37,093 nucleotides of DNA from Candidatus Woesearchaeota archaeon (GCA_964604105.1 CAZRXO010000003.1:1-37093); one strand, 5' to 3'; counted from the first letter of the stretch, positions 10,785-31,102 are shown. Notes: generated by a model from the sequence alone, not told the origin. Numbers and translations: made by a program.

Positions 10785-11372
10785 ATGCCAAAAAAAGTTA
10801 TTCTCAAAAAGAAAGTATCCCCAAGAAAAACACCAAATTCTGGAGCAAAGAAAAAACCCTCGCCAATAGATTCAACACAGAAAAGTCTAAATGATAATTT
10901 CATTGCTCTTCAAAAGGTTATGACAAATCTTGCTATAAAATTTGATAGTCTATCATCTCAAATTTCTCAACTATTAAATTTATTTGAAATCTCTGCAAAA
11001 GCTCTCGCTGAGAAAGATTTTGATTTTGAAAAATCAAACAAAGACAATAAAAAGATTATAGAAAAATTAGATACACTCTCAGAACAAAATAAAATAATTG
11101 CGCGAGGATTGACCTTAATGCATGAAAAATTTGAACCAGAATCAGAAGAGGTTGAGGAAGAAATTTCCGAACAAAGACCAATGCCTTCGATGAGATCCCC
11201 TAGGCCCCTGCCCACAAGACCTATGGCAAATCCTGCGAATCCTCAAGCAATCAAAGCACAACTTGAACAAAAAGATTCCTTAGGAAGAGCATCAAATATC
11301 CATCGTCTTGGGAAAAACGACCAATATTACAAATCAATTGCTGATCAAAACAAAGAAAAACCAAGGCAATAA
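10785..11372 (+). CDS. hypothetical protein: basic N-terminus, coiled-coil middle, Pro-rich C-terminal part
   Basis: ORF track. Heptad-like segment LNDNFIALQKVMTNLAIKFDSLSSQISQLLNLFEISAKALAE. PMPSMRSPRPLPTRPMANPANP tract. Confidence 0.6.
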   Translation: MPKKVILKKKVSPRKTPNSGAKKKPSPIDSTQKSLNDNFIALQKVMTNLAIKFDSLSSQISQLLNLFEISAKALAEKDFDFEKSNKDNKKIIEKLDTLSEQNKIIARGLTLMHEKFEPESEEVEEEISEQRPMPSMRSPRPLPTRPMANPANPQAIKAQLEQKDSLGRASNIHRLGKNDQYYKSIADQNKEKPRQ

Positions 11373-11477
11373 AATTAATCTGAAATAAATTCCAATCATT
11401 TGCTCAACCATACTAAATCTTTTTCTTCTTAACAACTTTCTCTAAAATTTTATATACTCTCCTTCCCTAAACCCAAT

Positions 11478-12143
11478 ATGATAAAAAATTCCTCAAAAGA
11501 TTTCAAAAGAAAATTTTTACTTGCATTTACAAATCAATTAATCAGAGCGCACACCCCAAGATATTTTTTAGACCAACAAATCAAGGGAAGAATTAAGGAG
11601 GTAGACCAAGAAAAACAATCTCAAGAAACAAAATTCAAAACATTAAAAGAATTAAAAAAAGAAGTCCCAGAGCTTTTTAACAAACCATATTTTAAAAGAA
11701 CACAAGAAATTAGAGAAACCCCGATGAAAATTCTGAGAATCCCAGAACCAAAACTCCCACCACATTTGCAATATCTTAGGCCCACTGCAAAATCTGATGT
11801 AAAAATTAATCTGGGAAAACTAAATCCCTTGCTTGCAGACCCCCAAGTAAAATCAATTGAATGTAATGGGGAAAATCAAAAAGTCATTGTAAGAATTCCC
11901 CAACCAAAACCCGCAAACATTCAATTAACAAAAGAAGAAATAGATAACATAATAGATAAATTCGAACAAGAATCAAAGATTCCTGCTGATGAGGGTTTTT
12001 ACAGAGTCGCTGTTGGGGCATTAGTTTTCTCTGCAATAATTTCAGACTTAACCGGCTCGAGATTCTTGATTAAAAAAATTCCTCAACAAAAACAAATGCC
12101 TCAAAGAAGAATGCAGGAATTTAGGCCTATGATGAGGAGATAA
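11478..12143 (+). CDS. protein resembling only the N-terminal (pre-Walker A) part of FlaI/VirB11/TadA-type secretion ATPases
   Basis: LNPLLADPQVKSIECNGENQKVIV...LTKEEIDNIIDKF...GSRFLIKK matches by eye the L.PLL.DP.V.EI..NG...V.V / ..GSR..I.K pattern that precedes the P-loop in these ATPases. The ORF stops before any Walker A. Confidence 0.55.
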   Translation: MIKNSSKDFKRKFLLAFTNQLIRAHTPRYFLDQQIKGRIKEVDQEKQSQETKFKTLKELKKEVPELFNKPYFKRTQEIRETPMKILRIPEPKLPPHLQYLRPTAKSDVKINLGKLNPLLADPQVKSIECNGENQKVIVRIPQPKPANIQLTKEEIDNIIDKFEQESKIPADEGFYRVAVGALVFSAIISDLTGSRFLIKKIPQQKQMPQRRMQEFRPMMRR

Positions 12144-12291: not shown

Positions 12292-12759
12292 TTATCTCCA
12301 AAGATCAATTTTCAATTCACTCTTTTCTCTTTCCTCAACCAATTTCTTTACATCAGGAAAGATTTCTTCTATAAATTTTTCTAGTTTTCCAGCCAATTCT
12401 TCAACAGGGTTTTTATTTGAAATGAGACTTACATTGACAAAATCATAGCAATAATCATCATTACTTTTTTTAAAATTCATACGCCTTACCCATATCAAAA
12501 TATTCTCAGGAGTCAAATAAATACTTCCTCTATCAAAGTTAATTCCATTAATATATGTAGAGTTGTTCTCCAGATAAACTCCAATCTCACGTTCCATTTG
12601 AATAATTGTCTGTACTCCCATTCTTCCTAACTCTGAAGAATTATATTTATCAGGATTTCTTGGGAAACATATTGCTTTTTGATATTTTGAACCAACTTTT
12701 CTCTCCCTTTTATTATCTCCTCTTTGCTTTGCATTAAGTATTTTGGATAACTCGCTCAT
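12292..12759 (-). CDS. hypothetical protein, 155 aa
   Basis: ORF track. 4-nt ATGA overlap with the upstream ORF. Confidence 0.6.
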   Translation of the reverse strand: MSELSKILNAKQRGDNKRERKVGSKYQKAICFPRNPDKYNSSELGRMGVQTIIQMEREIGVYLENNSTYINGINFDRGSIYLTPENILIWVRRMNFKKSNDDYCYDFVNVSLISNKNPVEELAGKLEKFIEEIFPDVKKLVEEREKSELKIDLWR

Positions 12760-13085
12760 TTTATTTTTCCTTCTAAATTTTTTGTTTCGAGATTCAAATC
12801 TCTTTCAAAATCCTCTAGTTTTTCTTTTTGAATATCTTTAATAAAAACATATTTCCCATCTTTATCTTCTACAAAGATTCTTTCATTGTAAAATAATTCA
12901 TGTGTTTGGATTACTAATTCATTTTTGCCATCCTTATCAAAATCTTGAAAATAAGCAGCCTCAGGCAACCCCGCATTCTTCCCTGTGGAATACATTCCAC
13001 CCATCAAGACACATAGAGCACAAAAAGCGGGCATCAGCCAGTTGTATTTGTTAGTTGTACATTTATCTTCTTCCATAAAAGTCAC
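12756..13085 (-). CDS. small membrane-anchored protein with DxDxDG-like (FG-GAP/EF-hand-like) motif
   Basis: TM helix WLMPAFCALCVLMGGMY, then FQDFDKDGKNELV. Confidence 0.55.
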   Translation of the reverse strand: MTFMEEDKCTTNKYNWLMPAFCALCVLMGGMYSTGKNAGLPEAAYFQDFDKDGKNELVIQTHELFYNERIFVEDKDGKYVFIKDIQKEKLEDFERDLNLETKNLEGKIK

Positions 13086-13144
13086 TAATATTTCCAGTTT
13101 ATCTAACTTTTACCTCATATGTCTGTCTTTTATCTATATCTCCT

Positions 13145-13162
13145 CCAAAACATTTAAATAAT
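13145..13162 (+). promoter_or_regulatory. BRE/TATA-like promoter of the HTH_10 gene (ccaaaacaTTTAAATAat)
   Basis: TATA-like tttaaata lies 22-29 nt upstream of ATG 13182. Nearly the same sequence precedes the paralogue at 32252. Confidence 0.45.
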
Positions 13163-13181
13163 ACCTGATATATAATATAGT

Positions 13182-13841
13182 ATGTGGAAAGCAGTCTTCG
13201 AAGGAAAACATAATAGTTGCCTAATTGCTCCCTTATGTAAAAAATATAAAATTACAGATTTTGTTTACTTAGTAAATGCTTGGAAAGAAAAGAATTCTTT
13301 CTATTATACAGAGGCTCATGTTTTGCAAGGTGGTGAAGAAGATAAAAAGAAATTTGTCAAAGAAATGAAAAAAGAAAAAAGTATAATCAAATTTGAACAG
13401 CGAGGGAATTTTATCATTACTTTAAATAAAAGACCAGAATGGCTTTCAGTTTATATGCCTCTTTGGGATAAAAGATTAATTCAAACAAAACCAATTGTTC
13501 AAAAATCAGATGGGACAGAAATTTGGGAACTCGGTTGTTGGGATAAAGAACCTTTAACATATATTCTTGAAAAATTACCTAAAGAATTTGAAATTAAATT
13601 AAAATCAATTACTCAGGAAAAGATTGATGAAATTTTTCTTCCACATATTATGCCCAAACTAAGTCAAAGACAAAAAGAGATAATTCAACTTGCAGTCAAG
13701 GAAGGTTACTTTGATTTTCCAAGAAAAATAAATTTAGATGGTCTAGCGAAAAAGACAAATCTTTCAAAACAAACAGTTCAACAACATCTTAGATTTGCAG
13801 AAAAGAAATTAGTACCTTTTTTGACAGAAAATATTTTGTGA
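13182..13841 (+). CDS. HTH_10 (bacterio-opsin-activator-type C-terminal HTH) family transcriptional regulator
   Basis: C-terminal LSQRQKEIIQLAVKEGYFDFPRKINLDGLAKKTNLSKQTVQQHLRFAEKKLV is the typical HTH_10 pattern. Paralogue at 32252..32923. Confidence 0.8.
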   Translation: MWKAVFEGKHNSCLIAPLCKKYKITDFVYLVNAWKEKNSFYYTEAHVLQGGEEDKKKFVKEMKKEKSIIKFEQRGNFIITLNKRPEWLSVYMPLWDKRLIQTKPIVQKSDGTEIWELGCWDKEPLTYILEKLPKEFEIKLKSITQEKIDEIFLPHIMPKLSQRQKEIIQLAVKEGYFDFPRKINLDGLAKKTNLSKQTVQQHLRFAEKKLVPFLTENIL

Positions 13842-13896
13842 GATAACTCGCTGTCGCTCGAATATACTAACTCCAAATCCGCCATGAGGCAGGATT

Positions 13897-14053
13897 TTCC
13901 GTCGAGAAATCTATTAACCCAAAAACAACTTTCACATATATTTTAGACTAATGCTCACAGAGTTAAAAATATTTTCCTATTAATAACTTTTCCTCAGCGA
14001 GAAATTCGCCTGCAATTTCGAGCAATCAATTTTGCCGAAGGCAAGAATTCTAA
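13897..14053 (+). repeat. intergenic repeat family, copy A
   Basis: Contains gagaaatctattaacccaaaaacaactttcacat and agcgagaaattcgcctgcaatttcgagcaatcaattttgccgaaggcaag. Collinear with copy B by eye. Confidence 0.75.
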
Positions 14054-16126
14054 TCACTTCAGCATCAAACTAATATTTCTCTTAATATCAGCCTCTAAAG
14101 AAGCCTTTTTTTTATCTAAATCATCTTTTTGTCTTTTCAAATTATCCTGAATTTTTTTATTAAACTCTGCCTGAACTCTTTTTTTAAGTTCATTTTCTTT
14201 TCTAGCTAATTCTCTATCAAGTTCTGCATGAAGTTTTTCTGTAATCTCTTTAATCTTTTTAGCATCAGTCATTTTTAACTTTCTCTCAAAACTTTTTCTC
14301 CCAGTTAATAGTTCCTTCACAGTTCTTCTCTCAACAGAAAGATTTTCTCTAATATCTTGCAATGTCTGTTCTTTTTCATGAAGATGTCTTTTTACTTCTT
14401 TGATTTTCCCTTCATTTTCTTTTCGTTTCATATCAAGTTGCTTTTGAGAAAGTCTCTTTTGATTTTCAATCTCATTATTTAATCTATCTAAGAAATTTTT
14501 CTCCAACTCATCGTGAATCTTTTTCTTTTCTTCAATTAATTTAATCCTCAAATTTCTATTGGCTTCTGCAAGAAGTTTCTTCATTAAGATTCTTTTTTGT
14601 TCTTTAAATTTCTCTCTTTCTCTTTTCTTAATCTTATTAAATTCCTGTTGCAAAGAATGCTTTTTTAGTTCAATTGATTCAATATATTCTGCTTTATTTT
14701 TTTCAAACTCCTTTTCCTCTTTTTCAATAAGAACCTTTCCAGAATCAATTTGTTTTCTTAGCCTGTCCATTCGCATTCCTGCAAGTTCTTCTTTGCGCCT
14801 CAGGTTTTCATAATTATTCTTTAACTCTTGTTTAGATTTCTCAATTCTATTTTTTTGTTCCTGAATTCCTAAAAGAGTTTTATGCTCATGAAATTTAAGC
14901 TCATTCATATGTTTGTTATATCTTCCTTCTAAAATCTTTTTTCGGGAGTCGTAAATACCCTCCAATTTATCTTTTTCCCTTGAGATTGAGCTATTTAATT
15001 TTTTATTAAATTCTTCTTTTAATCTTTCTCTTCTTTCATTTGTTTGTTTCTTAACTTCAGCAACAACCTTGTTATGGAACTTCTCTTTCAAAACCTTTTC
15101 CTTAGATTCAATCTCACCATGAATTCTTTTAGTTCCTTCTTCAGAAATCTTTTTGTAATATTGTTTTTTTTCGCGTTCTAATTGAGCATTTTTCTCTTTT
15201 AATTTCTTTTCAACTTTATCAAAGAATTCTTTTTTATCATTAGCCAATTGAGCACGTTTCTCCTTTGTCTCTTTTTTAATTCTATTAAGAAGTTCTTTTT
15301 TTTCATTTTCTAACTGAGCATTTTTCTCTTTTAATTTCTTTTCAACTTTATCAAAGAATTCTTTCTTTTCATTAGTCAATTGAGAACTTTTTTCTCTTAG
15401 CTCTTTCTTAGTTTTATTAAAGAATTCTTTTTTATCAACTTCAATCTTCGCTGTTTTTTCATCAATTACTTTCTTAACTTCTCTTGCTTCTTCTTCTGTT
15501 AAATCTTTTTTAAGTCCAGTAATAAAATCAATGTACTTTTCATCAACTAATGTCCCAACTTCACCGTCTATTTTCCTCTTCTCTTCTTTTTTCTTTTTTT
15601 CCTCAAACATATTCTTTAAATTTCTAATTTGAGAATTTAGTTTTTTATATTCTTCATTTATTTTGTTATCTTTCAAACGAGCAATCTTTAATGCTTGCAA
15701 TCTTTTTTCTTCTCCAATCTCTCTTTCTCTTTTAGCAATTTTTAATGTCTGTTTGCTTTTTTGCTCTTCAAGTTCTTTATCTTTTTTCAATCGTGTAATC
15801 TGTGTCTTTAATCTCGGAACTTCTTCCTCCTTAAGTTTAGAATATTTTCTTCTAATCTTTTTTATTGAAGATGTTTTTTTCTTAATCTTCGCCATTTTCG
15901 TCTTTAGTTTTTTAAGTCTTTTTTCAATTTCATCAATAGAAGTGGGATCTTTTAGTTGGGATTTTATTATATTAACTTCAACCTCAAATTTCTTGGGCGG
16001 GTCAAGAATTCGAACTTCTCTTTTCAATTCTTTTAATCTATCGATTTTCTCCTCGTAATTCACAAATTTCTTAGGAATATTCTTAACTATTTTTTTAGAT
16101 TTTTTCTTTACCTCTTTCTTCGCCAT
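14054..16126 (-). CDS. 690-aa Lys/Glu-rich coiled-coil protein with 22-aa repeats
   Basis: ORF track. Almost entirely K/E/R/L heptad-like sequence. No TM or signal peptide. Immediately downstream of the giant membrane protein. Confidence 0.75.
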   Translation of the reverse strand: MAKKEVKKKSKKIVKNIPKKFVNYEEKIDRLKELKREVRILDPPKKFEVEVNIIKSQLKDPTSIDEIEKRLKKLKTKMAKIKKKTSSIKKIRRKYSKLKEEEVPRLKTQITRLKKDKELEEQKSKQTLKIAKREREIGEEKRLQALKIARLKDNKINEEYKKLNSQIRNLKNMFEEKKKKEEKRKIDGEVGTLVDEKYIDFITGLKKDLTEEEAREVKKVIDEKTAKIEVDKKEFFNKTKKELREKSSQLTNEKKEFFDKVEKKLKEKNAQLENEKKELLNRIKKETKEKRAQLANDKKEFFDKVEKKLKEKNAQLEREKKQYYKKISEEGTKRIHGEIESKEKVLKEKFHNKVVAEVKKQTNERRERLKEEFNKKLNSSISREKDKLEGIYDSRKKILEGRYNKHMNELKFHEHKTLLGIQEQKNRIEKSKQELKNNYENLRRKEELAGMRMDRLRKQIDSGKVLIEKEEKEFEKNKAEYIESIELKKHSLQQEFNKIKKREREKFKEQKRILMKKLLAEANRNLRIKLIEEKKKIHDELEKNFLDRLNNEIENQKRLSQKQLDMKRKENEGKIKEVKRHLHEKEQTLQDIRENLSVERRTVKELLTGRKSFERKLKMTDAKKIKEITEKLHAELDRELARKENELKKRVQAEFNKKIQDNLKRQKDDLDKKKASLEADIKRNISLMLK
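15170..15470 (-). repeat. in-frame tandem repeats inside the coiled-coil gene (66-nt / 22-aa unit)
   Basis: A 49-nt string tgagcatttttctcttttaatttcttttcaactttatcaaagaattctt occurs identically at 15183-15231 and 15315-15363. Degenerate units lie between and after. Protein unit is KKEFFDKVEKKLKEKNAQLENE. Confidence 0.85.
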
Positions 16127-16165
16127 CTTTTGTATATTATTTAATCTCTTTTAATTTAAAAAACT

Positions 16166-19100
16166 TTACTTCTCTCGTAATTTCTTTAATTCTAATTCCA
16201 GAGTCGCTGTGCCGTAATATCCTTGCTTCTTCCAAAGTTTTAATTTTCTTTTTAGTCCTTTGATTTGAATTTTTTTCACTTTCTTTTCAATCTTTATTTG
16301 TTTTCTTAAACTCTTCCGTGCTTTCTTCTGAATTTTCCTAAACTCTTTCTTTTCTTTTCTTGATTTTTTCTTTTCAATTTTCTTGAAAACTTTGATTTGT
16401 TTTTTTATTCTTTTATGACTCTTCTTATGTTTAAACCATAAAGCAATTCCTAAAAAAATCTTATGTTCTCTTCGAGCCCTTGCTCTCCGAGAAAACGCTT
16501 TCTCTTGAATCTTCTTTAATTTTTTTCTTTCAGCAATTCTTCTTTTCTCCTCTATTAATCTTAATCTCTCCTTTCTTTTTTTATCTCTCAATAATTTTTT
16601 ATGCAAGTTTCTCGCCTGATGGCCCAAGATAATTTTTCTCACAAATTTCTTTTCTTTTCTAGCAACATGGTGTTCAAGTTCAATAACTTCTTTTTTCAAA
16701 TTTGCAGTCCCATAATAACCTTCAGCTTTCCAAATTCTTAATTGCCTTTTCAATTTAGCAAGTAATTTTTCTTCATAACTTTTCACCGGAACCATAATTA
16801 TTTTAGGTTTAATCTCTTCAATAGGAACCACCTTTCTTCTTTTCTTGAAACTAATCGAAGGAAACACAACCAATCTCTTAAACCACCGAGTAATTTTTCT
16901 TTCTAATTTCTTCTCTTTTCTTGTATCAAATTTAGCACTTTCCACAATCTCAAAAATTGTTTCAGGAACTCTTTGTAAATTGATTTTTCTTCTTTCTTCT
17001 ATTACAAAGGTCATAATTAAAATTCCAAATATCATCCATGAAACTAGAATTGCCCAGAATAACCAATCAAAAAAACTTTTCTTATTCAAGCATTCAGGGC
17101 AATTATCCCCCCCACAATCAACTCCAACCTCGTCGTAATTTTTCACACCATCATAACAATAATCACAATAACCTGTGAAAGAGCCCCCTGTTAAACTAAT
17201 ATCAACTTTCTTTAAATCAGTAAATTCTATAAGCTCTTTTTCTTTAATACGACTAACAAGTTCACTTGTCTCTGCATCATAGATTTCAACATAATCTTCA
17301 TAACACCATTTTGTTTTTTTAGATGTAATCGGGATTGCTAAACCACACGGCAGTTCTTCAATTTTATCCTCTTTACATTTTCCCAAGTCTTCACAAATTT
17401 TTTCCTTGTAACCTTGAACAAAAGTAGATCCCTCAAGAACATCATTTATATCATACTTCGCCCCACATGAACTCCAATCACTACAATTCCATTGAGTATA
17501 ACATCCACATTTTTCTTCTTCAGGTTTTCCAATTGTTTTATTACAATACTTCAAATCAACACAATCAAATGGATAACTATTAACGTCCCCCTCTTCACAA
17601 TCTGTCCAATCACAATCCCAATTAGGAATACAATCTAAGCTTGCATTTTCATTTATTTCAATATTCCAATTAATATGTTGTATTTGAGAATCCGCCACGA
17701 TTTCAGCTTTTACCTCTGAGTCTTCTTCAAAAGATTCAGAGTAACTACTTGATAAACTCCCTATTCCAATATCTTGTTTTTTAGATTGCGAATTCAATAA
17801 CCAAGTTGCAGCCAAATTTGCCTCGCCGGCCAAATCTCTAACCTCTATATTAAATCCTACAGAATCTCCTTTGGCCAAAATTAAATTCAATTCTTTAGGG
17901 GAATAATCAATTTCAATTCCAGAAATACAAGATTGGGTTTGGTCTGGTTTATTTAATTCTGTCCCACAAGTATTTTTATCTTCACAAGTTCTTATTTGAA
18001 TTTCTTCGACACATGTGCTCCATGCTTTGCACACCCAATTTTCTATACAAGAAGCACAAACCCCACTATAACATCTTTCAAATCCGCCGCAAGTTTCTGT
18101 TGCCCATTCTCCCCACAAAGAACAGCCAACTGTTCCTCCGCAAGTTCTAACGCGAGTTAAACTATCACTTAAACATTCTTTTTGTTGTTGTCCAAGAACA
18201 CAATTATCACACGTTGTTTGCACACATCGAGCTCCTTCACAAATCTTTCCTGCACCACAATAATTTTCACTCCAAGCACTCCATTCCAAACAACTATCTG
18301 AATCATAATTTCCACAAGTTCTTGTATTCAAAGTTGTTGAGTCCGAGCAAGTGTTTTGAGAACTTCCTGAAGGAGAACAATCATCACTGCAACCACCTCC
18401 ACCCCCGCCGCCCCCAGAACCACAACTCTGCGATTCAACTTCAACACAACTAGTGCTATCTGTTCTTGATCTTGTTTGCGAACTCCCTACGCAAGGGCTC
18501 CAAGCACTCCATGCCCCAAAATCCCCTTGGCAAATTCCAACATCTGAATGAAGCACAGAACCAAGATAATTTAAATGGCTATCGTCGCTATTATTAACTT
18601 CCCACTTAATATAAGCTCCGGCTCCAGAACTATAATTAACAATTAAACTTGTAATATATTGCCCCACCCCAAGTTTAGTCATATCACCTGGATAATATTT
18701 TATCCCCCGAAGAGAATCGTCGCTTTTCATTGCAGTAGCACTGATATTTTGAGGGTCATAGTTTAAATTTGAAACACTTCCATTATTTTTCTTAATCTCA
18801 ATTGTTAAAGTTGCAATATCTCCGTCATAATATTTTCCATTAGATTGCAATCCACCCATAGTCGGGGTTGTAACATAATTAGCAACTGTAAGATTAATCG
18901 CAGATTGATTTAATAATCTTGAAGTTCCAGAATAACTATAGTTGACTTGTATATCTTTTTTCCCAACATCTCTCACACTGATATTATAATCTAAAATGCA
19001 ATCTCCTGAAGAATTAGTTAAAGAATTTCCCAATAAAGCACTATCTTCAAAGAAATAACATGTAGCTCCACTAATTCCAGAGAAGGTGCTTGAGTCAAAA

Positions 19101-19465
19101 ACTTTTGCAGTTAAATTTATATTGTTCCTAAGAATCCCTAAATCATCTTCTCCGCTGGTTGTTCCCCCCCTTAATAATTCTTGATTGTTTAATGGGGAAG
19201 TTATATTTATTGTCGCTGTTACTATTGAATTTAAAATGCCAAACCTCCCAGTAAAACTTGAACTTGTATAATTCGCTACTGGTTGCTCACCCCCAATTAA
19301 TCTTTGTGTAAAACTCAAAGAGCTTGCATTTGCCGTCGGACCAAAATCAAATTTAGAGCGAATAGTATAACTCGAAGAAGTTCCATTAAATGCAAAAACA
19401 CCCGACACAACTATTGTTAGTAAAATCATTCCAACTAAAATATTTCTCAAAACTTTACTTTCCAT
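16166..19465 (-). CDS. 1099-aa type I membrane surface protein: signal/TM N-terminus, Asn-x-Ser/Thr-rich ectodomain, Cys/Trp (WSxWSxC-like) repeats, Gly8 run, single TM, polybasic cytoplasmic tail
   Basis: ORF track. N-terminal hydrophobic LVGMILLTIVVSGVFA. Motifs GAWSAWSPC...RSR, LEWSAWSENYC, CKAWSTC, CSDWSSC. CDYCYDGVKNYDEVGVDCGGDNCPEC directly before TM FDWLFWAILVSWMIFGILIMTFVI. K/R-rich tail at residues 824-1099. Confidence 0.85.
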   Translation of the reverse strand: MESKVLRNILVGMILLTIVVSGVFAFNGTSSSYTIRSKFDFGPTANASSLSFTQRLIGGEQPVANYTSSSFTGRFGILNSIVTATINITSPLNNQELLRGGTTSGEDDLGILRNNINLTAKVFDSSTFSGISGATCYFFEDSALLGNSLTNSSGDCILDYNISVRDVGKKDIQVNYSYSGTSRLLNQSAINLTVANYVTTPTMGGLQSNGKYYDGDIATLTIEIKKNNGSVSNLNYDPQNISATAMKSDDSLRGIKYYPGDMTKLGVGQYITSLIVNYSSGAGAYIKWEVNNSDDSHLNYLGSVLHSDVGICQGDFGAWSAWSPCVGSSQTRSRTDSTSCVEVESQSCGSGGGGGGGGCSDDCSPSGSSQNTCSDSTTLNTRTCGNYDSDSCLEWSAWSENYCGAGKICEGARCVQTTCDNCVLGQQQKECLSDSLTRVRTCGGTVGCSLWGEWATETCGGFERCYSGVCASCIENWVCKAWSTCVEEIQIRTCEDKNTCGTELNKPDQTQSCISGIEIDYSPKELNLILAKGDSVGFNIEVRDLAGEANLAATWLLNSQSKKQDIGIGSLSSSYSESFEEDSEVKAEIVADSQIQHINWNIEINENASLDCIPNWDCDWTDCEEGDVNSYPFDCVDLKYCNKTIGKPEEEKCGCYTQWNCSDWSSCGAKYDINDVLEGSTFVQGYKEKICEDLGKCKEDKIEELPCGLAIPITSKKTKWCYEDYVEIYDAETSELVSRIKEKELIEFTDLKKVDISLTGGSFTGYCDYCYDGVKNYDEVGVDCGGDNCPECLNKKSFFDWLFWAILVSWMIFGILIMTFVIEERRKINLQRVPETIFEIVESAKFDTRKEKKLERKITRWFKRLVVFPSISFKKRRKVVPIEEIKPKIIMVPVKSYEEKLLAKLKRQLRIWKAEGYYGTANLKKEVIELEHHVARKEKKFVRKIILGHQARNLHKKLLRDKKRKERLRLIEEKRRIAERKKLKKIQEKAFSRRARARREHKIFLGIALWFKHKKSHKRIKKQIKVFKKIEKKKSRKEKKEFRKIQKKARKSLRKQIKIEKKVKKIQIKGLKRKLKLWKKQGYYGTATLELELKKLREK

Positions 19466-19661
19466 TTTTTAAATAATGCAATTTACAATTTCCAATTTCT
19501 CGAACATTAATAATACCCTTGCCAATTAAATTCATCAAGGCCATTGAAACAGTAATTCGAGAAACATTAGTTTGGTCTGCAAGCTCTTGAATTGTCAAAC
19601 CACGATTATCTTTTTTTAGAATTTTCTGCACATCTATTATAACTTCTTCTACTTTTCCCAT
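19455..19661 (-). CDS. 68-aa winged-helix DNA-binding protein
   Basis: LTIQELADQTNVSRITVSMALMNLIGKGIINVREIG is an HTH-plus-wing pattern. Overlaps the start of the giant surface protein gene by 11 nt. Confidence 0.7.
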   Translation of the reverse strand: MGKVEEVIIDVQKILKKDNRGLTIQELADQTNVSRITVSMALMNLIGKGIINVREIGNCKLHYLKNGK

Positions 19662-19742
19662 CTTTTAAAATATACACTAGTATATAACATTAGTGATTAT
19701 CATAAGTAATTAACATTGGTATATAAAGATTTCTATATCCCC

Positions 19743-21671
19743 TCACTCTTTATTCTTCTTTTCTTTTTTCTCTTTCTCAGATTCTTCTACTACTGGTTCT
19801 TCGGTAGCTTCTTCATCCACCCCTTCTTCTACTGGTTCTTCATTAGTTGCGGGTATGCTACTTTCTTCACCCACGATAGTTTCAGAGTCCCCCACAACAC
19901 TTTCATTATTTTCTTCTTCAGAGTTTATGACAAGGGCATCATTAGTTCCTCCCTCTCTTGTTTCAAAATCAAACAATCCAAATTCTTTATTCAAATCTGT
20001 AATTTCATTATCCCCAACATTCTCTGCGATTAATCCATTAGCTAGATCTTTCAACCAGTTTACAATATCTCTTTGCATCCAACTTTCTAATTTTAAATCT
20101 CCTAATTGCAAATCATAAAATCTTGTTGCAGATTTTCCGCCAAATTCAAACTTAACTTCAACACCCCCACTATGTTCTATCGCAGTTGTTTTTACAGAAG
20201 TTTCATTTCCAAATTCCTCAAGAAGAATAGCTTTTTCCTCCTCTGTCAAGAAAACATTTCTTAATTTAATTTTGTCCCCCAAAGTTAAATTTTCTTCTGT
20301 AAATTCTTCAATACTAATTTCTCCTTCTTCTAAATTTGCTTCTAAAGAAAGAATTTCCTCCCCACCATAAACTAAATTAATAATTAATTCTCCTGGTTTA
20401 AAAGTTAAATTCAATTGAGACAAATCAATAGCCAAAATTTTTCCTTCATCTCCAAGATAGTCTTCGCCAAATCCAGACTCTGTTTCAGAATAATCTGTTG
20501 TTACAAGAATGACTCCTTCATTAACTTCTAAATCTAAATTCCCCTCGCTGATTTCAACAAATTCCACAACACCCTCATCATTAGTTTCTTTAATCCTCAC
20601 AGAACCAGATTTAATTTGCGCGACATAATCTTCTCCCAACTCATATTCAAAATCATTTACAGACGAAACCTCGCCATTAATTTCTCCTTGTGCTAATTCT
20701 TCTTGAGTCACTTGACCGGTTAAAGATAAAAATACCTTTGAAAAAAATCCTGTAATTGTTTTAACAAATGCTCCAGTAACAGGAGCACCCCCTTCTGAAT
20801 TTTCTGATGAACTTTCTTCAGGACTTTCTGAACTTGAATCCTCGCCACTTGTTTCTTCTGGTTTTTTTTCTTTTTTCTCTTCGGTTTTTTCAGCTTTCTT
20901 TTCTTTTTTTATTTCTTCTTTATTAATTTCTGTTTCCTCAATAGCCTCTTCATCAACAGTGGCCTCGTCTTCTACAATAATTTCTTCACTTACTATTTCA
21001 GTTGTTTCTCCTTCACTTTCAGTTGTTGTTTCGCCTTCTTCAATATTTTCAGTATTTTCTTCTACCACCTCTTCACTTTCTACTTCTTCAAAAACTTCCT
21101 CCTCTTCTACCACTTCTTCACCACCCCTTTCAACAATTTCTCCGGTTTCAATTTCTTCTTCAACTTCTATAATTTCTAAAGTAAAATAAATTGTTTTTGG
21201 AATTTCTTTCTCACCTTCAACACCATAACCTAACCCCTCGCCAGAAATACTTTTTCCTTCAACATAAAAATCTCCTTCAGCAACTTCTTCAGTAGCCAAG
21301 GCCTCTAATTCATATTCATATGTTTCACCATTGTTTGTAAATACAACCTTTGTCGAGGCAGGGATGAATTCACCTTCTTTCAAGGAGAGTTTTATGATTC
21401 CTTCAAGAGATTCAGTATCAGTATAACTTCCTTCTAAACCAAGGCTAACTTTACCTGTGAGCCCATTAAAATTTCCAACAACATAAACAAGAGCCAATAA
21501 AATTGCAACCCCTAAAAAAATCCCTAAGAATTTTTTATTAAAATTAAATCCAGAAGAACCCCCTCCACTTCCATGATATTCTGAAACTACTTTTCCCCCA
21601 ATTCTTTTACTATGATAAATATAAGGCCCATACCTTTTACCATTCTTATAAATATATTTTTTATACACCAT
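19743..21671 (-). CDS. 642-aa membrane-anchored, highly acidic (Glu-rich) surface protein
   Basis: N-terminal basic motif MVYKKYIYKNGKRYGPYIYHSKRIGGKVVSEYHG, Gly/Ser linker, TM FLGIFLGVAILLALVYVV, then long E/V/T-rich ectodomain and an EKEKKEKKNKE C-terminus. Confidence 0.8.
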   Translation of the reverse strand: MVYKKYIYKNGKRYGPYIYHSKRIGGKVVSEYHGSGGGSSGFNFNKKFLGIFLGVAILLALVYVVGNFNGLTGKVSLGLEGSYTDTESLEGIIKLSLKEGEFIPASTKVVFTNNGETYEYELEALATEEVAEGDFYVEGKSISGEGLGYGVEGEKEIPKTIYFTLEIIEVEEEIETGEIVERGGEEVVEEEEVFEEVESEEVVEENTENIEEGETTTESEGETTEIVSEEIIVEDEATVDEEAIEETEINKEEIKKEKKAEKTEEKKEKKPEETSGEDSSSESPEESSSENSEGGAPVTGAFVKTITGFFSKVFLSLTGQVTQEELAQGEINGEVSSVNDFEYELGEDYVAQIKSGSVRIKETNDEGVVEFVEISEGNLDLEVNEGVILVTTDYSETESGFGEDYLGDEGKILAIDLSQLNLTFKPGELIINLVYGGEEILSLEANLEEGEISIEEFTEENLTLGDKIKLRNVFLTEEEKAILLEEFGNETSVKTTAIEHSGGVEVKFEFGGKSATRFYDLQLGDLKLESWMQRDIVNWLKDLANGLIAENVGDNEITDLNKEFGLFDFETREGGTNDALVINSEEENNESVVGDSETIVGEESSIPATNEEPVEEGVDEEATEEPVVEESEKEKKEKKNKE

Positions 21672-21782
21672 CTTTTGTCTTGCAATTTACTGTAAGTAAA
21701 TAACTAAGGATATTAAGAAATATAATTATTTAAATCTTTTCAAAACCCGAAAATCAAAATTAGTTACCCTACAACCAAAGAA

Positions 21783-22046
21783 TTATTTTTCAGCGTCGGT
21801 ATAAGGAACTAATACAACAGGATTACCTTCTGCGTCAATTAACTGAACAGACCCTTGCTGGTTAATTGATTGCAAAATTGTAGCAATTGTAATTTGCTGG
21901 GCTTCGATTTGCTTGTTGTAAATATATTTTGTAAATTGTGGTTTTAGCACAAGTGTGTACAAAACAATTCCTGCAAGAACCAACACAAGAATCAACAAAA
22001 TTGCTATAATCATTCTCGTATTATCTTTTTTTTCTTTATATGCCAT
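21783..22046 (-). CDS. small single-pass membrane protein, 87 aa
   Basis: ORF track. TM MIIAILLILVLVLAGIVLYTLVL. Confidence 0.55.
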   Translation of the reverse strand: MAYKEKKDNTRMIIAILLILVLVLAGIVLYTLVLKPQFTKYIYNKQIEAQQITIATILQSINQQGSVQLIDAEGNPVVLVPYTDAEK

Positions 22047-22062
22047 TTTTCTCCTAAATTAT

Positions 22063-22896
22063 TTAATTAGTTGTAGTAATTTCAACCATTGTTATAACAC
22101 TTTCCCAAGCAATATCTCCTTGCCCTTCAACATAAGCAGAGATTAAATCTCCTGCTTCAAAGGTCACAACCTCTGATGATTGAACATCATAATCTTTTTT
22201 TGTCTCTACAGATGAGGCATCAAGAGTATTACTAAATCTAATTGCCTCGCCATTTTTATAAATTATTATACTAATCTCTCCTTCAGAATCTGCCTTTGCT
22301 ACATCTAAACTTGTTGAGATTCCAGTAATACTTCCCTCCCGCATCATCACATAGCCATTATCTAAACTTCCTTCAACACCTGTAGCGGTTTTCAAGAATC
22401 CAGAATCACTCCTCTCATCAGCCATTCCAAAATGCAAGAACTGTCTCTTGTCATGAGCAATAATTAAATCCCCTTGTGCCTGCAATTCATTCACAGAATA
22501 TGTAATTACAAAGATTTGATTTTTCTCTTTTCCTTCCTCTTCATAATCAACTTGATAAATTGCTAAATTAGAATTATCAACATTTTCAATTGCAACCTCC
22601 TTGGGCAAATCTTCAAAATTAACTTCAGTAACATTTGTGATGTCTTCTGCTGGCACCCCTTTTTTCTCAACAAACTTTTCAACATATGTTCTTACCTCAT
22701 TTCTTATTTCATTTGGATTAGAAACATCGTAGATAACTCCTTCCACAGATGCCTTGGTTTCCTCGCTGACTTCACTAGAAACAGAATCTGCAGCAGTCGC
22801 GAATACTCCCACAACTAAAAGCAAAACCATACTTAGAACTACACTCAATAAAATCTTTTTCATCTTCTCTTTTGGTATAATAGAATAGTAATTCAA
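22063..22896 (-). CDS. secreted or membrane-anchored protein, 277 aa, unknown function
   Basis: Signal-peptide-like KKILLSVVLSMVLLLVVGVFATAADS. Acidic mature part. Confidence 0.7.
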   Translation of the reverse strand: MNYYSIIPKEKMKKILLSVVLSMVLLLVVGVFATAADSVSSEVSEETKASVEGVIYDVSNPNEIRNEVRTYVEKFVEKKGVPAEDITNVTEVNFEDLPKEVAIENVDNSNLAIYQVDYEEEGKEKNQIFVITYSVNELQAQGDLIIAHDKRQFLHFGMADERSDSGFLKTATGVEGSLDNGYVMMREGSITGISTSLDVAKADSEGEISIIIYKNGEAIRFSNTLDASSVETKKDYDVQSSEVVTFEAGDLISAYVEGQGDIAWESVITMVEITTTN

Positions 22897-22995
22897 CTTT
22901 AAAAATCTTCTCTTCTATCGAAAGATATTTATACTAAAAATTATTAATTAGTTTATTCTATATATTTTATAGAAGTGAGAAAAGTGAAAGGAGGT

Positions 22996-23478
22996 ATGAT
23001 AATGATAAATAACAAAAAAGGTTTGTCAGCAATTGTTGCGACACTTATGATAATTTTACTTGTCTTAATTGCAGTTGGAATTATTTGGGTTGTTGTGCGA
23101 AATGTTGTTGAAAGTGGAACACAAAATATTGATATCGGTGCAAAATGTTTAGAAGTTGATGTAAGAGCTACTGCTGTTAGCCCAACTAACCAAGTTACCT
23201 TGGAAAGAGGTGCAGGGGGAATAAATATTGATGAAGCTAATGGGGGAGTAGTAATTGTATTTACTGATGGTCTTAACTCAGAGAGTTTTGATTTATGGAA
23301 AGACGGGGGATTAGAGGAAAATAAATTAAATCCTTTAGATACAAAAACAACAGTAGGTTTAGAAGGATTAACTGGTGCAGACATGGTACAAGTTACAGTG
23401 TATTTCAAAAATGACAAGGGGGAATCTCAACTTTGTGGTACAACAACAGAATATAGTTTTACTCCTGAACCAGCATAA
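22996..23478 (+). CDS. archaeal type IV pilin-like protein (class III signal peptide), paralogue of the 6772 N-terminal region
   Basis: MIMINNKKG/LSAIVATLMIILLVLIAVGIIWVVVRNV is near-identical to the 6772 product N-terminus. Shared LERGAG motif. Track ORF starts at GTG 22975; ATG 22996 follows a GGAGG. Confidence 0.8.
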   Translation: MIMINNKKGLSAIVATLMIILLVLIAVGIIWVVVRNVVESGTQNIDIGAKCLEVDVRATAVSPTNQVTLERGAGGINIDEANGGVVIVFTDGLNSESFDLWKDGGLEENKLNPLDTKTTVGLEGLTGADMVQVTVYFKNDKGESQLCGTTTEYSFTPEPA

Positions 23479-30969: not shown

Positions 30970-31102
30970 GACGGAAGGAGGGAGTCGAACCCTCTTTGTA
31001 CGGAATTCGCGAGCTCGCACGAGGCATTGATATCAAGCGATAGTCTCTACCACGAACCTGCTCTCCACAACCGCACGTAATAACCGTTATACCACAACCG
31101 TC
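30970..31102 (-). tRNA. candidate tRNA-His (anticodon GUG at 31066-31068) with 60-nt intron (31005-31064) at the canonical 37/38 position
   Basis: Hand fold of the minus strand. G-1 pairs with C73. D arm GUAU/AACGGUUA/UUAC. Anticodon stem UGCGG/CCGUA formed across the intron, loop UUGUGG..U. 4-nt variable loop. T arm GAGGG-UUCGACU-CCCUC. Acceptor ACGGUUG/CUUCCGU has two U-U mismatches. No encoded CCA. Confidence 0.6.

What the first reader, a model, noticed from the sequence alone, without database searches (positions are those of the whole stretch)
14054..22896. Cell-surface island possibly coupling an extracellular Cys/Trp-repeat adhesin to cytoplasmic polybasic/coiled-coil components
Six co-oriented minus-strand genes form one block:
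- secreted 277-aa protein
- 87-aa TM protein
- 642-aa polyacidic ectodomain protein with a cytoplasmic KKYIYKNGKRYGPYIY head
- 68-aa wHTH, overlapping the next gene by 11 nt
- 1099-aa type I membrane protein
- 690-aa K/E coiled-coil cytoplasmic protein

The giant protein carries a cytoplasmic tail of about 275 aa that is almost pure K/R. The gene immediately downstream encodes a soluble K/E-rich coiled coil. This suggests, as inference, a transmembrane assembly linking an external adhesin to an internal filament or scaffold. For a small-genome archaeon this would be a candidate host-attachment or envelope-organising apparatus. None of the components has a recognisable characterised family.
Basis: partly seen in the sequence, partly recalled or inferred. 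Interest (0 to 1): 0.7.

Follow-up and report, generated by a model that had tools for sequence, protein, structure and literature searches.

The report
DPANN surface-protein module with cytoplasmic partner
A gene neighbourhood in tiny uncultured (DPANN) archaea encodes cell-surface proteins, and the largest has an inner tail motif found only when the next gene, a long coiled-coil protein, is also present, which makes the pair a testable candidate for linking the cell surface to an internal scaffold.

Summary
The six minus-strand genes exist as described and are real, conserved genes of Pacearchaeota/Woesearchaeota-type DPANN archaea. They are not one indivisible island. Comparative genomics splits them into three sub-modules.

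- Sub-module A is g277, g87 and g642, often with a type IV pilin-like gene. g277 is secreted and has a predicted C1q/TNF-like knob.
- Sub-module B is an optional wHTH, the 1099-aa type I glycoprotein and the 690-aa coiled-coil protein.
- Sub-module C lies outside the finding's coordinates. It is a stand-alone FlaI-N-domain-like protein and a small helical protein (10785-12143, + strand).

Six of seven loci anchored on g277 lack B entirely.

The strongest new result concerns B. The giant protein's tail carries a conserved helix-GYYGT-helix motif (L..W+..GYYxT..L). This motif and the coiled-coil gene co-occur strictly: 16 loci have both, 11 have neither, none is discordant. In 17 of 17 loci anchored on the coiled-coil gene, a motif-bearing giant gene lies directly upstream. 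At least three co-losses are inferred.

The caveat is that the tail-coding end and the coiled-coil gene are adjacent, so one deletion can remove both. Both partners are polycations, so simple charge attraction is unlikely.

An adhesin or host-attachment role remains inference. No component belongs to a characterised family by sequence. I found no description of this module in four full-text searches.

The parts
22063..22863 (-). g277. Secreted protein (signal peptide MKKILLSVVLSMVLLLVVGVFATA) with a helical N-region and a C-terminal C1q/TNF-like jelly-roll head at aa ~140-266 of the 266-aa form. The ORF as listed runs to 22896 from a TTG. Sub-module A.
   Evidence: ORF. Gene callers use the internal ATG. 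556 homologs, all unnamed. AF2 model has pLDDT about 90 in the head. Foldseek PDB hits: C1QL1 E=1e-5 with TMt 0.61, 4-1BBL, BxpB/ExsFA, Pgp3. BFVD hits: collagen-fibre knobs, BclB, C1q, tail-fibre receptor-binding proteins.
21783..22046 (-). g87. Small single-pass membrane protein (N-in) with a conserved ectodomain of about 45 aa (consensus ...P.IQGYIVNKQ.EAQ...QQGYV.L...). Sub-module A.
   Evidence: It is always adjacent to g277 in relatives, although their order swaps between subclades.
19743..21671 (-). g642. N-in single-pass membrane protein with three conserved folded ectodomains, separated by a variable acidic or S/T-rich linker. In part of the family there is a cytoplasmic head YKKYIxKNGKxYGPYxYHSxRVxGKVVSEY. 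Sub-module A.
   Evidence: No Pfam or PDB relative. No domain shared with g1099 or g277.
19455..19661 (-). g68. 68-aa winged helix-turn-helix protein whose stop overlaps the start of the giant gene. Present only in the closest subclade. Probable local regulator.
   Evidence: HTH_24 E=3.9e-6. Lrs14-like at E=5.8e-5, below the family cutoff. Present in L003-L006, L018, L031 and L060 only.
16166..19465 (-). g1099. Type I membrane glycoprotein made of a signal peptide, a sequon-rich beta-sandwich N-region (aa ~84-307), Cys/Trp modules (aa 312-513 and 612-792) flanking another beta-sandwich (aa 509-605), a TM helix, and a 275-aa basic helical cytoplasmic tail. Sub-module B.
   Evidence: AF2 model. 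Foldseek gives only generic Ig/MG arrays. 14 sequons in the N-region against 5.9 expected. 46 Cys, all in the ectodomain. CxxxWxCxxWxxC in 35 of 35 orthologs. No Pfam domain.
16994..17077 (-). Transmembrane helix of g1099 (aa 797-824, FFDWLFWAILVSWMIFGILIMTFVI).
   Evidence: Hydropathy. Helix 795-831 in the model. F799, D800 and W810 are invariant.
16706..16732 (-). Tail motif copy 1 (aa 912-920, WKAEGYYGT). It forms the loop of a helix-loop-helix.
   Evidence: The model puts helix 897-915, loop 916-920 and helix 921-998 here.
16208..16234 (-). Tail motif copy 2 at the extreme C-terminus (aa 1078-1086, WKKQGYYGT). This is the most conserved cytoplasmic element, with L1071, K1074, L1075, W1078, G1082, Y1083, Y1084, T1086 and L1089 invariant in 7 full-length homologs.
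   Evidence: Presence strictly coupled to the g690 gene.
14054..16126 (-). g690. Cytoplasmic, strongly basic (net +74) protein. It has a conserved N-terminal module of about 240 aa (nt 15407-16126; F..F..K..RL.E...EL..L....GFEKEV.IIKS.LKDTTAIPE, VDSxVG..VDE.Y..FI) followed by a K/E-rich helical, coiled-coil-like region whose length varies among orthologs (550-1130 aa total). Sub-module B.
   Evidence: PDB profile search gives only generic coiled-coil noise. Always directly downstream of a motif-bearing giant gene.
11478..12143 (+). f221. Stand-alone protein whose C-terminal half resembles the N-terminal domain of FlaI/GspE-type secretion ATPases but has no ATPase core. Conserved neighbour, normally convergent to g690 or g642. 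Sub-module C, outside the finding's coordinates.
   Evidence: NCBIfam FlaI E=1.3e-3. Family profile against PDB: FlaI 4ii7 residues 68-187 at E=1e-4 and GspE2 2oap at E=0.03. 1490 cluster representatives, the best 150 all 140-320 aa. Synteny.
10785..11372 (+). f195. Small protein with a basic N-terminus, a conserved helical core (LL.ENF..LQKVMTNL..KFD.LS..ISKLL.LFEISAKSFAEK) and a Pro-rich tail. Always paired with f221. Sub-module C.
   Evidence: No PDB relative. The CdvA coiled-coil hit at E=0.034 is not significant.
22975..23478 (+). Type IV pilin-like gene, divergent from g277, with a class III signal peptide-like N-terminus (NNKKG|LSAIVATLMIILLVLIAVG). In relatives, pilin-like genes sit inside sub-module A, between g87 and g642 or in front of g642.
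   Evidence: for the sequence. UpsA pilin at E=0.025, weak. Homologs next to the module in L004, L005, L018 and L035. Class III signal proteins between g87 and g642 in L058 and L061.

Best explanation
The block is a lineage-specific cell-envelope gene neighbourhood of Pacearchaeota/Woesearchaeota-type DPANN archaea. It is built from separable sub-modules.

Sub-module B is the core of the finding. The 1099-aa product is a signal-peptide-bearing, N-glycosylation-sequon-rich, disulfide-rich type I surface protein. Its parts are beta-sandwich domains, Cys/Trp knots and a membrane-proximal Cys stalk. Its ectodomain architecture varies widely between species.

Its basic helical cytoplasmic tail ends in a conserved helix-GYYGT-helix motif. 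I infer that this motif docks onto the conserved N-terminal module of the 690-aa protein encoded immediately downstream. The long basic helical region of that protein would then lie under the membrane, on anionic lipid or possibly nucleic acid. There it could cluster or anchor the surface protein.

Sub-module A contributes a separate set of surface components that can exist without B. These are a secreted protein with a predicted C1q/TNF-like knob, a small TM protein, a TM-anchored three-domain protein, and often a pilin-like protein. The wHTH is a subclade-specific local regulator.

Shown: gene content, conservation, topology features, predicted folds, and the strict motif/g690 coupling. Inferred: physical tail-g690 contact, the sub-membrane scaffold role, and an adhesion or host-contact function.
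For: - Conserved order and orientation appear in at least 12 genomes plus independent metagenome loci.
- Unbiased clustering recovers the same families. The other recurrent neighbours are housekeeping genes.
- Tail motif and g690 co-occur: 16 both, 11 neither, 0 discordant, Fisher p=8e-8 without phylogenetic correction.
- The 'neither' state sits at three or more positions of a rough NJ tree, with no bootstrap support.
- One clade has replaced the tail with a different conserved tail and has no g690.
- In 17 of 17 g690-anchored loci a motif-bearing giant gene lies directly upstream.
- The motif is found in no other protein of the loci.
- It is modelled as a helix-loop-helix with locally better confidence than its surroundings.
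- Surface-protein features: signal peptide, TM, 46 ectodomain Cys, sequon enrichment of 14 against 5.9 expected.
- The ectodomain is highly variable, 823-2934 aa with HINT, PA14 and MopE inserts, as is typical of adhesins.
- The g277 head has a C1q/TNF fold shared with fibre-tip and receptor-binding knobs.
Against: - There is no direct interaction, expression or localisation evidence.
- The tail-coding 3' end and g690 are adjacent, so a single deletion or recombination can remove both. The number of independent events is small (about three) and rests on an unsupported NJ tree.
- The tail and g690 are both polycationic, and their lengths are uncorrelated.
- Six of seven g277-anchored loci lack sub-module B. 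The six genes are therefore not an obligate machine, and B is dispensable in many relatives.
- The g1099 model is of modest quality (mean pLDDT 62) and the Cys/Trp modules are poorly modelled.
- DPANN proteomes are generally K-rich, so basicity alone says little.
Confidence: 0.45

Rival explanations
1. This is a general envelope or S-layer-like structural module with no host-attachment role. In this reading g1099 is a wall or surface-layer glycoprotein anchored by its C-terminal TM, g690 is a membrane skeleton that supports a small wall-less cell, and sub-module A encodes further envelope proteins.
For: - g1099 has a signal peptide, a C-terminal TM anchor and sequon enrichment, like archaeal S-layer glycoproteins.
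- The Foldseek list includes the Haloferax S-layer protein 7ptp among generic Ig arrays.
- The module sits in a core chromosomal context, next to aIF2-gamma, S6e and PPDK.
Against: - g1099 and g690 are absent from 6 of 7 related g277-anchored loci, which is unexpected for an essential wall protein.
- Ectodomain architecture is extremely variable.
- The Foldseek TM-scores of 0.07-0.17 are not specific.
Confidence: 0.22
2. The module is an accessory of a type IV filament (pilus-like) system. The pilin-like proteins, the TM proteins g87 and g642 and the FlaI-N-domain-like f221 would assemble or decorate a pilus-like fibre. g277 would be a tip knob. g1099 and g690 would be an optional add-on.
For: - Pilin-like genes with class III signal peptides sit inside or beside sub-module A in the window and in many loci.
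- f221 resembles the FlaI/GspE N-domain.
- The g277 head resembles fibre-tip knobs.
Against: - No assembly ATPase core, platform protein (ArlJ/PilC-like) or prepilin peptidase was found among the window ORFs and recurrent locus gene families scanned against Pfam.
- The f221 match is weak (E about 1e-4) and lacks Walker motifs.
- g277, g87 and g642 have ordinary signal or anchor sequences, not class III signals.
Confidence: 0.15
3. This is neighbourhood without a complex. The genes are merely syntenic, g690 is a nucleoid- or RNA-associated basic coiled-coil protein, and the basic tail is only a strong positive-inside anchor. The tail-motif/g690 co-loss would then reflect single deletions of adjacent DNA.
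For: - Both proteins are polycations that would suit nucleic-acid binding.
- Adjacency explains co-loss.
- Gene order is loosened in some loci, with about 6-7 kb of inserted genes in L011 and L031.
- Sub-modules occur separately.
Against: - There are zero discordant cases in 27 plus 17 loci.
- A clade kept a long tail, but of a different conserved type, exactly where g690 is missing.
- The motif is invariant at the extreme C-terminus across roughly 35-45% identical proteins.
- g690 has a conserved non-coiled-coil N-module.
Confidence: 0.15
4. The block is an integrated virus or mobile element encoding a spike-like glycoprotein.
For: It encodes a type I glycoprotein, a jelly-roll knob protein and a small wHTH. 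Distant relatives of the g277 head occur on three viral contigs.
Against: - The giant protein has no relative in 2.9 million viral contigs.
- PHROGs gives only one weak hit, to a family of unknown function.
- Housekeeping synteny on both sides is stable across genera.
- Base composition is uniform.
- There are no integrase, capsid or terminase genes among the window ORFs scanned.
Confidence: 0.02

Closest known systems
Archaeal C-terminally anchored surface (S-layer-type) glycoproteins, for example Haloferax volcanii csg (PDB 7ptp)
   Same: Signal peptide, tandem beta-sandwich ectodomain, enrichment of N-glycosylation sequons and a C-terminal membrane anchor.
   Different: There is no sequence homology. 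The protein adds disulfide-rich Cys/Trp modules and a 275-aa conserved cytoplasmic tail coupled to a dedicated partner gene. It is dispensable in many relatives. S-layer proteins have essentially no cytoplasmic domain (own knowledge).
Thrombospondin type-1 repeat (TSR, Pfam PF00090) adhesins such as apicomplexan TRAP/MIC2. These are type I adhesins whose cytoplasmic tail, with a conserved subterminal Trp, links to the motor or cytoskeleton (own knowledge).
   Same: One module reads WSAWSPC...TRSR, a Trp/Arg-ladder-like pattern. NCBI names one ortholog 'thrombospondin type-1 domain-containing'. The type I topology with a conserved Trp-containing tail motif matches the functional logic of surface adhesin plus cytoplasmic linker.
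   Different: There is no PF00090 hit in the window protein or its orthologs. The module has only 4 Cys and is poorly modelled. TRAP tails are acidic whereas this tail is basic. The partner is unrelated. The resemblance is analogy, not membership.
C1q/TNF-like trimeric head domains: gC1q, TNF ligands, Bacillus BclA/BxpB/ExsFA exosporium proteins, phage fibre knobs
   Same: The predicted jelly-roll fold of the g277 C-terminal domain (Foldseek E=1e-5, TMt about 0.6; viral fibre knobs). It sits at the C-terminus of a secreted protein.
   Different: There is no sequence-family hit, no collagen-like stalk, and the oligomeric state is untested. The sequence motif GY[VI]MMRxGSITGIS is specific to this family and to three viral proteins.
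FlaI/ArlI and GspE-type secretion ATPases (N-terminal domain)
   Same: The C-terminal half of f221 aligns to FlaI residues 68-187 and to the GspE2 N-domain.
   Different: f221 has no ATPase core. It belongs to a large family of about 200-aa stand-alone proteins paired with a small helical protein.
DPANN attachment structures seen by cryo-ET, such as the Nanobdellota attachment organelle (PMC11420986)
   Same: The organisms have a comparable lifestyle, and the module spans the envelope with external and cytoplasmic parts.
   Different: The protein composition of those organelles is unknown. They are described in a different DPANN order, and no Woesearchaeota or Pacearchaeota culture system was found. 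No link can be tested here.

Membership tests
Thrombospondin type-1 repeat (Pfam PF00090 TSP_1) | Significant match to the family HMM | tested here: not met
   No TSP_1 hit for the whole protein at E<=0.1, for the isolated Cys/Trp segments at E<=10, or for orthologs including the NCBI-named P0011 at E<=0.01. The family profile against PDB gives the Isthmin-1 TSR only at E=0.33.
Thrombospondin type-1 repeat (Pfam PF00090 TSP_1) | WxxWxxW/C tryptophan motif followed by an RxR strand (Trp-Arg ladder) | tested here: met
   WSAWSPCVGSSQTRSR at aa 319-334. The same pattern occurs in 17 of 35 orthologs.
Thrombospondin type-1 repeat (Pfam PF00090 TSP_1) | Six-cysteine, three-disulfide framework in a repeat of about 55 aa with a three-stranded fold | tested here: inconclusive
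   Only 4 Cys (C312, C325, C340, C348) bracket the module. The AF2 pLDDT is below 50 for aa 309-359, so the fold cannot be judged.
C1q/TNF-like jelly-roll head | Compact jelly-roll beta-sandwich fold matching gC1q or TNF domains | tested here: met
   The model's C-terminal domain has pLDDT about 90. Foldseek gives C1QL1 9lkk at E=1.1e-5 with TMt 0.61, plus many C1q, TNF-ligand and BxpB hits and viral C1q, BclB and fibre knobs.
C1q/TNF-like jelly-roll head | Sequence-family membership (Pfam C1q or TNF) | tested here: not met
   No Pfam or NCBIfam hit. No PDB sequence hit with the family profile.
C1q/TNF-like jelly-roll head | Trimeric assembly | not testable with these tools
   Only monomer prediction is available.
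FlaI/GspE secretion ATPase | N-terminal domain homology | tested here: met
   f221 family profile against FlaI 4ii7 residues 68-187 at E=1e-4 and against GspE2 2oap at E=0.03. NCBIfam FlaI at E=1.3e-3, far below the family cutoff. The match is weak but consistent.
FlaI/GspE secretion ATPase | RecA-like ATPase core with Walker A and B motifs | tested here: not met
   f221 is 221 aa and ends with the N-domain-like region. The best 150 relatives are 140-320 aa. It is therefore not a member, only N-domain-like.
Archaeal S-layer or surface glycoprotein (functional class) | Signal peptide, C-terminal membrane anchor and N-glycosylation sequon enrichment | tested here: met
   (14 against 5.9 sequons in the N-region, shuffle p about 0.001).
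Archaeal S-layer or surface glycoprotein (functional class) | Near-universal presence and high abundance in the lineage, with lattice formation | tested here: not met
   Absent from 6 of 7 related g277-anchored loci. Abundance and lattice formation are not testable here. The only Pacearchaeota metaproteome read gives no relevant detail.
Winged helix-turn-helix transcription regulators | HMM match to wHTH families | tested here: met
   For g68: HTH_24 E=3.9e-6 and HTH_11 E=5.3e-6, both above the Pfam cutoffs. The specific subfamily is unresolved (Lrs14-like at 23 bits against a cutoff of 90).
Anti-phage defence systems (PADLOC) or phage proteins (PHROGs) | Match of any block protein to a defence or phage family | tested here: not met
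   PADLOC gives only generic wHTH matches for g68. PHROGs gives only g277 aa 156-255 against phrog_32311, of unknown function, at E=3e-4.

The most novel reading that the evidence does not exclude
Sub-module B is a dedicated outside-in coupling device, a kind not described in archaea. In this reading a variable, glycosylated, disulfide-rich adhesin uses a conserved C-terminal helix-GYYGT-helix motif to plug into a sub-membrane coiled-coil scaffold. Together with the C1q-like knob proteins, pilin-like proteins and the FlaI-N-domain-like adaptor of sub-modules A and C, it would form the host-contact apparatus of Pacearchaeota/Woesearchaeota. That would supply the first molecular parts list for a DPANN attachment structure.
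Probability: 0.15. Interest if true: 0.85.

Novelty: new variant of a known kind. Interest (0 to 1): 0.6.

Why it matters
How DPANN archaea attach to and exploit their hosts is an open question. Even for cultured Nanobdellota the authors state that the proteins of the attachment organelle are unknown (PMC11420986). I found no Woesearchaeota or Pacearchaeota culture system.

This work turns a vague 'island' into defined, conserved families with a concrete and cheap test. The test is whether the tail motif (two peptides of about 40 aa) binds the 240-aa N-module of the coiled-coil protein. A natural negative control exists in a clade with a different tail and no partner gene.

If confirmed, this would be an archaeal example of a surface receptor or adhesin physically coupled to a cytoplasmic scaffold. 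It would also provide markers for cryo-ET labelling and for metatranscriptomic surveys.

If not confirmed, the families still define abundant, uncharacterised envelope proteins of a very widespread archaeal lineage. The g277 family has 556 homologs and the f221 family has 1,490 cluster representatives.

Tried and rejected
- Sequence-family searches (Pfam, NCBIfam, PHROGs, PADLOC) and family-profile searches against PDB found nothing significant for g277, g642, g1099, g690 or f195.
- A full-length Foldseek search of g1099 gave only generic Ig/MG-domain arrays with TM-scores of 0.07-0.17, which I judged non-specific.
- TSR membership, suggested by the WSxWSxC motif and an NCBI name, was rejected at the HMM level.
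- A CdvA-like reading of f195 rests on E=0.034 only and was rejected.
- The homologous-protein search with g690 was swamped by K/E-rich word matches and was uninformative. I used locus-based HMMs instead.
- The idea that the g642 cytoplasmic head co-occurs with the wHTH was dropped. The head is present in L024, L033, L058 and L059, which have no wHTH.
- The apparent clustering of g642 with g1099 is a low-complexity artefact. hhalign probabilities are 1-8%.
- The recurrent flanking families c6, c7, c10 and c11 are aIF2-gamma, S6e, UppP and a GTPase. They reflect background synteny.
- The provirus hypothesis was rejected.
- The electrostatic tail/coiled-coil pairing was rejected because both are polycations with no length correlation.
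- Bacterial-type promoter and terminator scans were at chance level and are not meaningful for an archaeon.
- Literature searches found no description of this module and no expression data.
- The first attempt at a metagenome scan with the broad g690 N-domain alignment failed because no stretch was conserved enough. A narrower alignment worked.

Full report
**1. Observation**

The window is from a low-GC (about 31%) archaeon. Flanking genes include diphthamide synthase, HisRS, PPDK and HTH_10, TrmB and AsnC regulators. Every relative retrieved comes from Candidatus Pacearchaeota, Woesearchaeota or Nanoarchaeota MAGs. The same sequence is on ENA contig ERZ27248965 k141_468287.

They are tightly packed, with gaps of 16, 111, 81, -11 and 39 nt. 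Hydropathy, charge and Cys/Trp counts confirm the described features.

Corrections:
- g277 probably starts at the ATG at 22863, giving 266 aa with a classic signal peptide.
- The tail is 37% K+R and 31% hydrophobic, and is predicted to be long helices. It is not 'almost pure K/R'.
- The acidic stretch of g642 is a variable linker between three conserved folded ectodomains.

**2. Are the genes real and co-conserved?**

The giant protein has about 36 strong homologs (E below 1e-90), several of them full length. These share:
- the N-terminal region,
- the CxxxWxCxxWxxC modules,
- a membrane-proximal Cys stalk (WCYEDYVEIYD...CxYCYDGxKNYDExGVDCGGxxCxxC),
- the TM helix (FFDW...), and
- a basic tail carrying the motif L..KL..W+..GYYxT..L, usually twice and once at the extreme C-terminus.

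A scan of species-representative genomes returned 53 loci. Searching all their ORFs with the window proteins showed the order (g87/g277)-g642-[g68]-g1099-g690 in at least 12 of them. Two further window genes, 11478-12143 and 10785-11372, follow in 18-20 loci, normally convergent and directly adjacent. In the window, three unrelated genes (12292-13841) are inserted between them and g690.

An unbiased all-against-all clustering recovered the same families. The only other recurrent neighbours are aIF2-gamma, S6e, UppP and a YlqF-type GTPase, which reflect background synteny.

**3. The block is composite**

I started independently from g277 homologs on long contigs.
- One locus (L060) reproduces the full module, including the wHTH.
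- Six loci (L058, L059, L061-L064) read g277-g87-(pilin-like)-g642 followed directly by f221-f195-PPDK. They have no wHTH, giant or coiled-coil gene.
- Those six share the window's wider backbone (PPDK in all six, and LemA and/or peptidase M48 in L059, L061 and L063). The wHTH-giant-coiled-coil trio therefore behaves as a separable sub-module (B) between sub-modules A (g277, g87, g642, with or without a pilin-like gene) and C (f221, f195).
- Three of these six loci (L059, L062, L063) come from one assembly, GCA_040961665.1, so they are not fully independent samples.
- The wHTH is restricted to the closest subclade.

**4. The tail motif and the coiled-coil gene are coupled**

I built HMMs for the g690 N-module and for the tail motif and ran them on all loci.
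- Of 27 loci with a complete tail and at least 2.5 kb downstream, 16 have both the motif and a g690 homolog immediately downstream.
- Eleven have neither, and none is discordant (Fisher p about 8e-8, not corrected for phylogeny).
- On a rough NJ tree of the stalk region, without bootstrap support, the 'neither' state appears at three or more separate positions.
- L014 and L015 have tail stubs of about 57 aa.
- The L019/L023/L024/L025 clade has a different conserved tail of about 150 aa (ERGINxSRPxIE...TRxSLRGKGF) and no g690.
- Anchoring on the g690 N-module in metagenomes, 17 of 17 evaluable loci have a motif-bearing giant gene directly upstream. Some of these duplicate genome loci.
- The motif occurs in no other protein of the loci or the window.

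The main caveat is that the tail is encoded at the 3' end of the giant gene, next to g690. One deletion or recombination can therefore change both.

**5. Nature of the components**

g1099:
- It has no Pfam, NCBIfam or PDB sequence relative.
- The AF2 model (mean pLDDT 62) shows beta-sandwich domains at about aa 84-307 and 509-605, a stalk domain at 680-745 and a TM helix.
- It also shows a tail of long helices interrupted exactly at the two GYYGT loops.
- Foldseek returns only generic Ig/MG arrays.
- Sequons are enriched in the N-region (14 against 5.9 expected), and the 46 Cys are all extracellular.
- One module (WSAWSPC...TRSR) looks TSR-like, but no TSP_1 HMM hit exists even in the ortholog NCBI names 'thrombospondin type-1'.
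- Ortholog ectodomains range from 823 to 2934 aa and carry HINT, PA14, MopE or DUF4215 inserts.

g277:
- It has 556 unnamed homologs.
- Its confident C-terminal domain is a C1q/TNF-like jelly roll. Matches include C1QL1 (E=1e-5, TMt 0.61), 4-1BBL, BxpB/ExsFA and Pgp3.
- The viral library adds collagen-fibre knobs, BclB, C1q and tail-fibre receptor-binding proteins.
- Three viral contigs encode a 225-aa protein with the same GY[IV]MMRxGSITGIS head, next to an 828-aa unannotated protein.

g690:
- It has a conserved N-module of about 240 aa, followed by a K/E-rich helical region of variable length.
- The PDB profile search gives only generic coiled-coil noise.

f221 and f195:
- f221 matches the N-domain of FlaI (4ii7 residues 68-187, E=1e-4) and GspE2, but has no ATPase core.
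- Its family has 1,490 cluster representatives, and the best 150 are all 140-320 aa.
- f195 is a small helical protein with a Pro-rich tail and no known relative.

Pilin-like genes with class III signal peptides sit beside or inside sub-module A.

**6. Mechanism**

The tail (net +40 to +97) and g690 (net +23 to +98) are polycations in all orthologs, and their lengths do not correlate (rho = -0.17). Charge attraction between them is therefore unlikely.

The best-supported reading is a specific contact between the conserved tail motif and the conserved g690 N-module. The basic helices of both would lie on anionic membrane lipid, or possibly nucleic acid. The variable, glycosylated, disulfide-rich ectodomain would act as a surface-binding protein.

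Sub-module A provides an independent set of surface proteins with a fibre-knob-like head. The adhesion or host-contact role is inferred from three things:
- the architecture,
- the variability of the ectodomain, and
- the DPANN lifestyle.

Nothing here tests that role. Cryo-ET papers on cultured DPANN state that the attachment-organelle proteins are unknown. The one Pacearchaeota metaproteome I read gives no relevant detection.

**7. Alternatives**

- A provirus or mobile-element origin is effectively excluded. The giant protein has no viral-contig relative, there are no informative PHROGs or PADLOC hits, housekeeping synteny is stable and composition is uniform.
- A purely structural envelope or S-layer role is weakened by the absence of B in many relatives.
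- A type IV filament accessory role for A and C is possible. It lacks an ATPase core, platform protein or prepilin peptidase among the neighbouring genes scanned.
- A no-complex reading, with adjacency explaining co-loss, remains viable. It has to explain the zero discordance and the tail replacement in one clade.

**8. Verdict**

The thing is an apparently undescribed, lineage-specific envelope gene neighbourhood built from known kinds of parts: a surface glycoprotein, a C1q-like knob, a coiled coil, a wHTH and a secretion-ATPase N-domain.

One feature is new and testable. It is a conserved cytoplasmic tail motif genetically coupled to a dedicated coiled-coil partner. Function remains unproven.

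Noticed in passing
window 18386-18427 (aa 347-360 of g1099, the SCGSGGGGGGGGCS linker); orthologs P0005, P0009, P0019; L060:13506-16733: Several orthologs carry a HINT/intein-like domain (Hint, PT-HINT, Vint and Intein_splicing hits) at about the position where the window protein has its poly-Gly linker, just after the first WSxWSxC module. An example is P0005, ...SGGDS|CFPAGTKITMADGS...VLVHN|KGETETC. Sitting in an extracellular protein with no obvious +1 nucleophile, it looks like an autoprocessing (BIL or Hedgehog-like) module rather than a splicing intein. It could release the N-terminal domain.
   Followed up: partly
L055:4265-4942, L056:4494-4856 (match), L057:4840-5517 (IMG/VR viral contigs): A 225-aa viral protein carries a C-terminal domain 32-33% identical to the g277 head and shares the motif GY[IV]MMRxGSITGIS. 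In L055 and L057 it is encoded right after an 828-aa unannotated protein. Neither has a PHROG annotation. This suggests the knob is a shared binding head between these archaea and some viruses.
   Followed up: partly
window 30970-31101 (-): Rfam finds a tRNA spanning 132 nt (33.9 bits, model positions 1-71) that ARAGORN did not report. It is presumably an intron-containing archaeal tRNA.
   Followed up: no
window 13842-14053: The 212-nt convergent intergenic region between the HTH_10 gene and g690 looks GC-rich by eye for this genome and contains several hairpins. The folding z-score is -2.9 on the + strand and -1.7 on the - strand. There is no Rfam match. It may be a bidirectional terminator region.
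   Followed up: partly
window 6772-7917 (+) and 22975-23478 (+): Two proteins with archaeal type IV pilin-like (class III signal) N-termini are encoded in the window (381 aa, net -42; 167 aa). No assembly ATPase, platform protein or prepilin peptidase was found among the window ORFs scanned.
   Followed up: partly
L024:7123-17280 and L033:1509-4589: The cytoplasmic head motif of g642 (Y+KY..+NGK.YGPY.Y.S.R..GKV...Y.G) also heads much larger proteins (3385 aa and 1026 aa) next to giant-protein homologs. It is a portable N-terminal cytoplasmic module of unknown function, possibly a two-beta-hairpin element. No Pfam hit even at E<=10.
   Followed up: partly
L059:7424-8614 and L060:2290-3237: Related DPANN contigs encode other eukaryote-like extracellular domains close to the module. 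One is a 396-aa protein with a Fibrinogen_C (PF00147) hit. The other is a 315-aa protein with von Willebrand C-like/Heavy_Cys hits. A large protein (about 660-706 aa) with a faint MG2 (macroglobulin) domain hit recurs in most of L059 and L061-L064.
   Followed up: no
window 12292-13841: Three genes are inserted between g690 and f221 in this genome only, relative to all syntenic loci. They encode a 155-aa protein, a 109-aa protein with a weak FG-GAP-like hit, and a 219-aa HTH_10 regulator. A second HTH_10 regulator of the same size class lies at 32252-32923.
   Followed up: no
L019, L023, L024, L025 (C-termini of the giant-protein homologs): One clade of giant-protein homologs has a different conserved cytoplasmic tail (…RQ..ISY.RE..RQ…GVE.MA..Q.P…ERGINxSRPxIE…K.WGIAKK.R.FF…TRxSLRGKGF) and no coiled-coil gene. 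It may have a different, unidentified cytoplasmic partner.
   Followed up: partly
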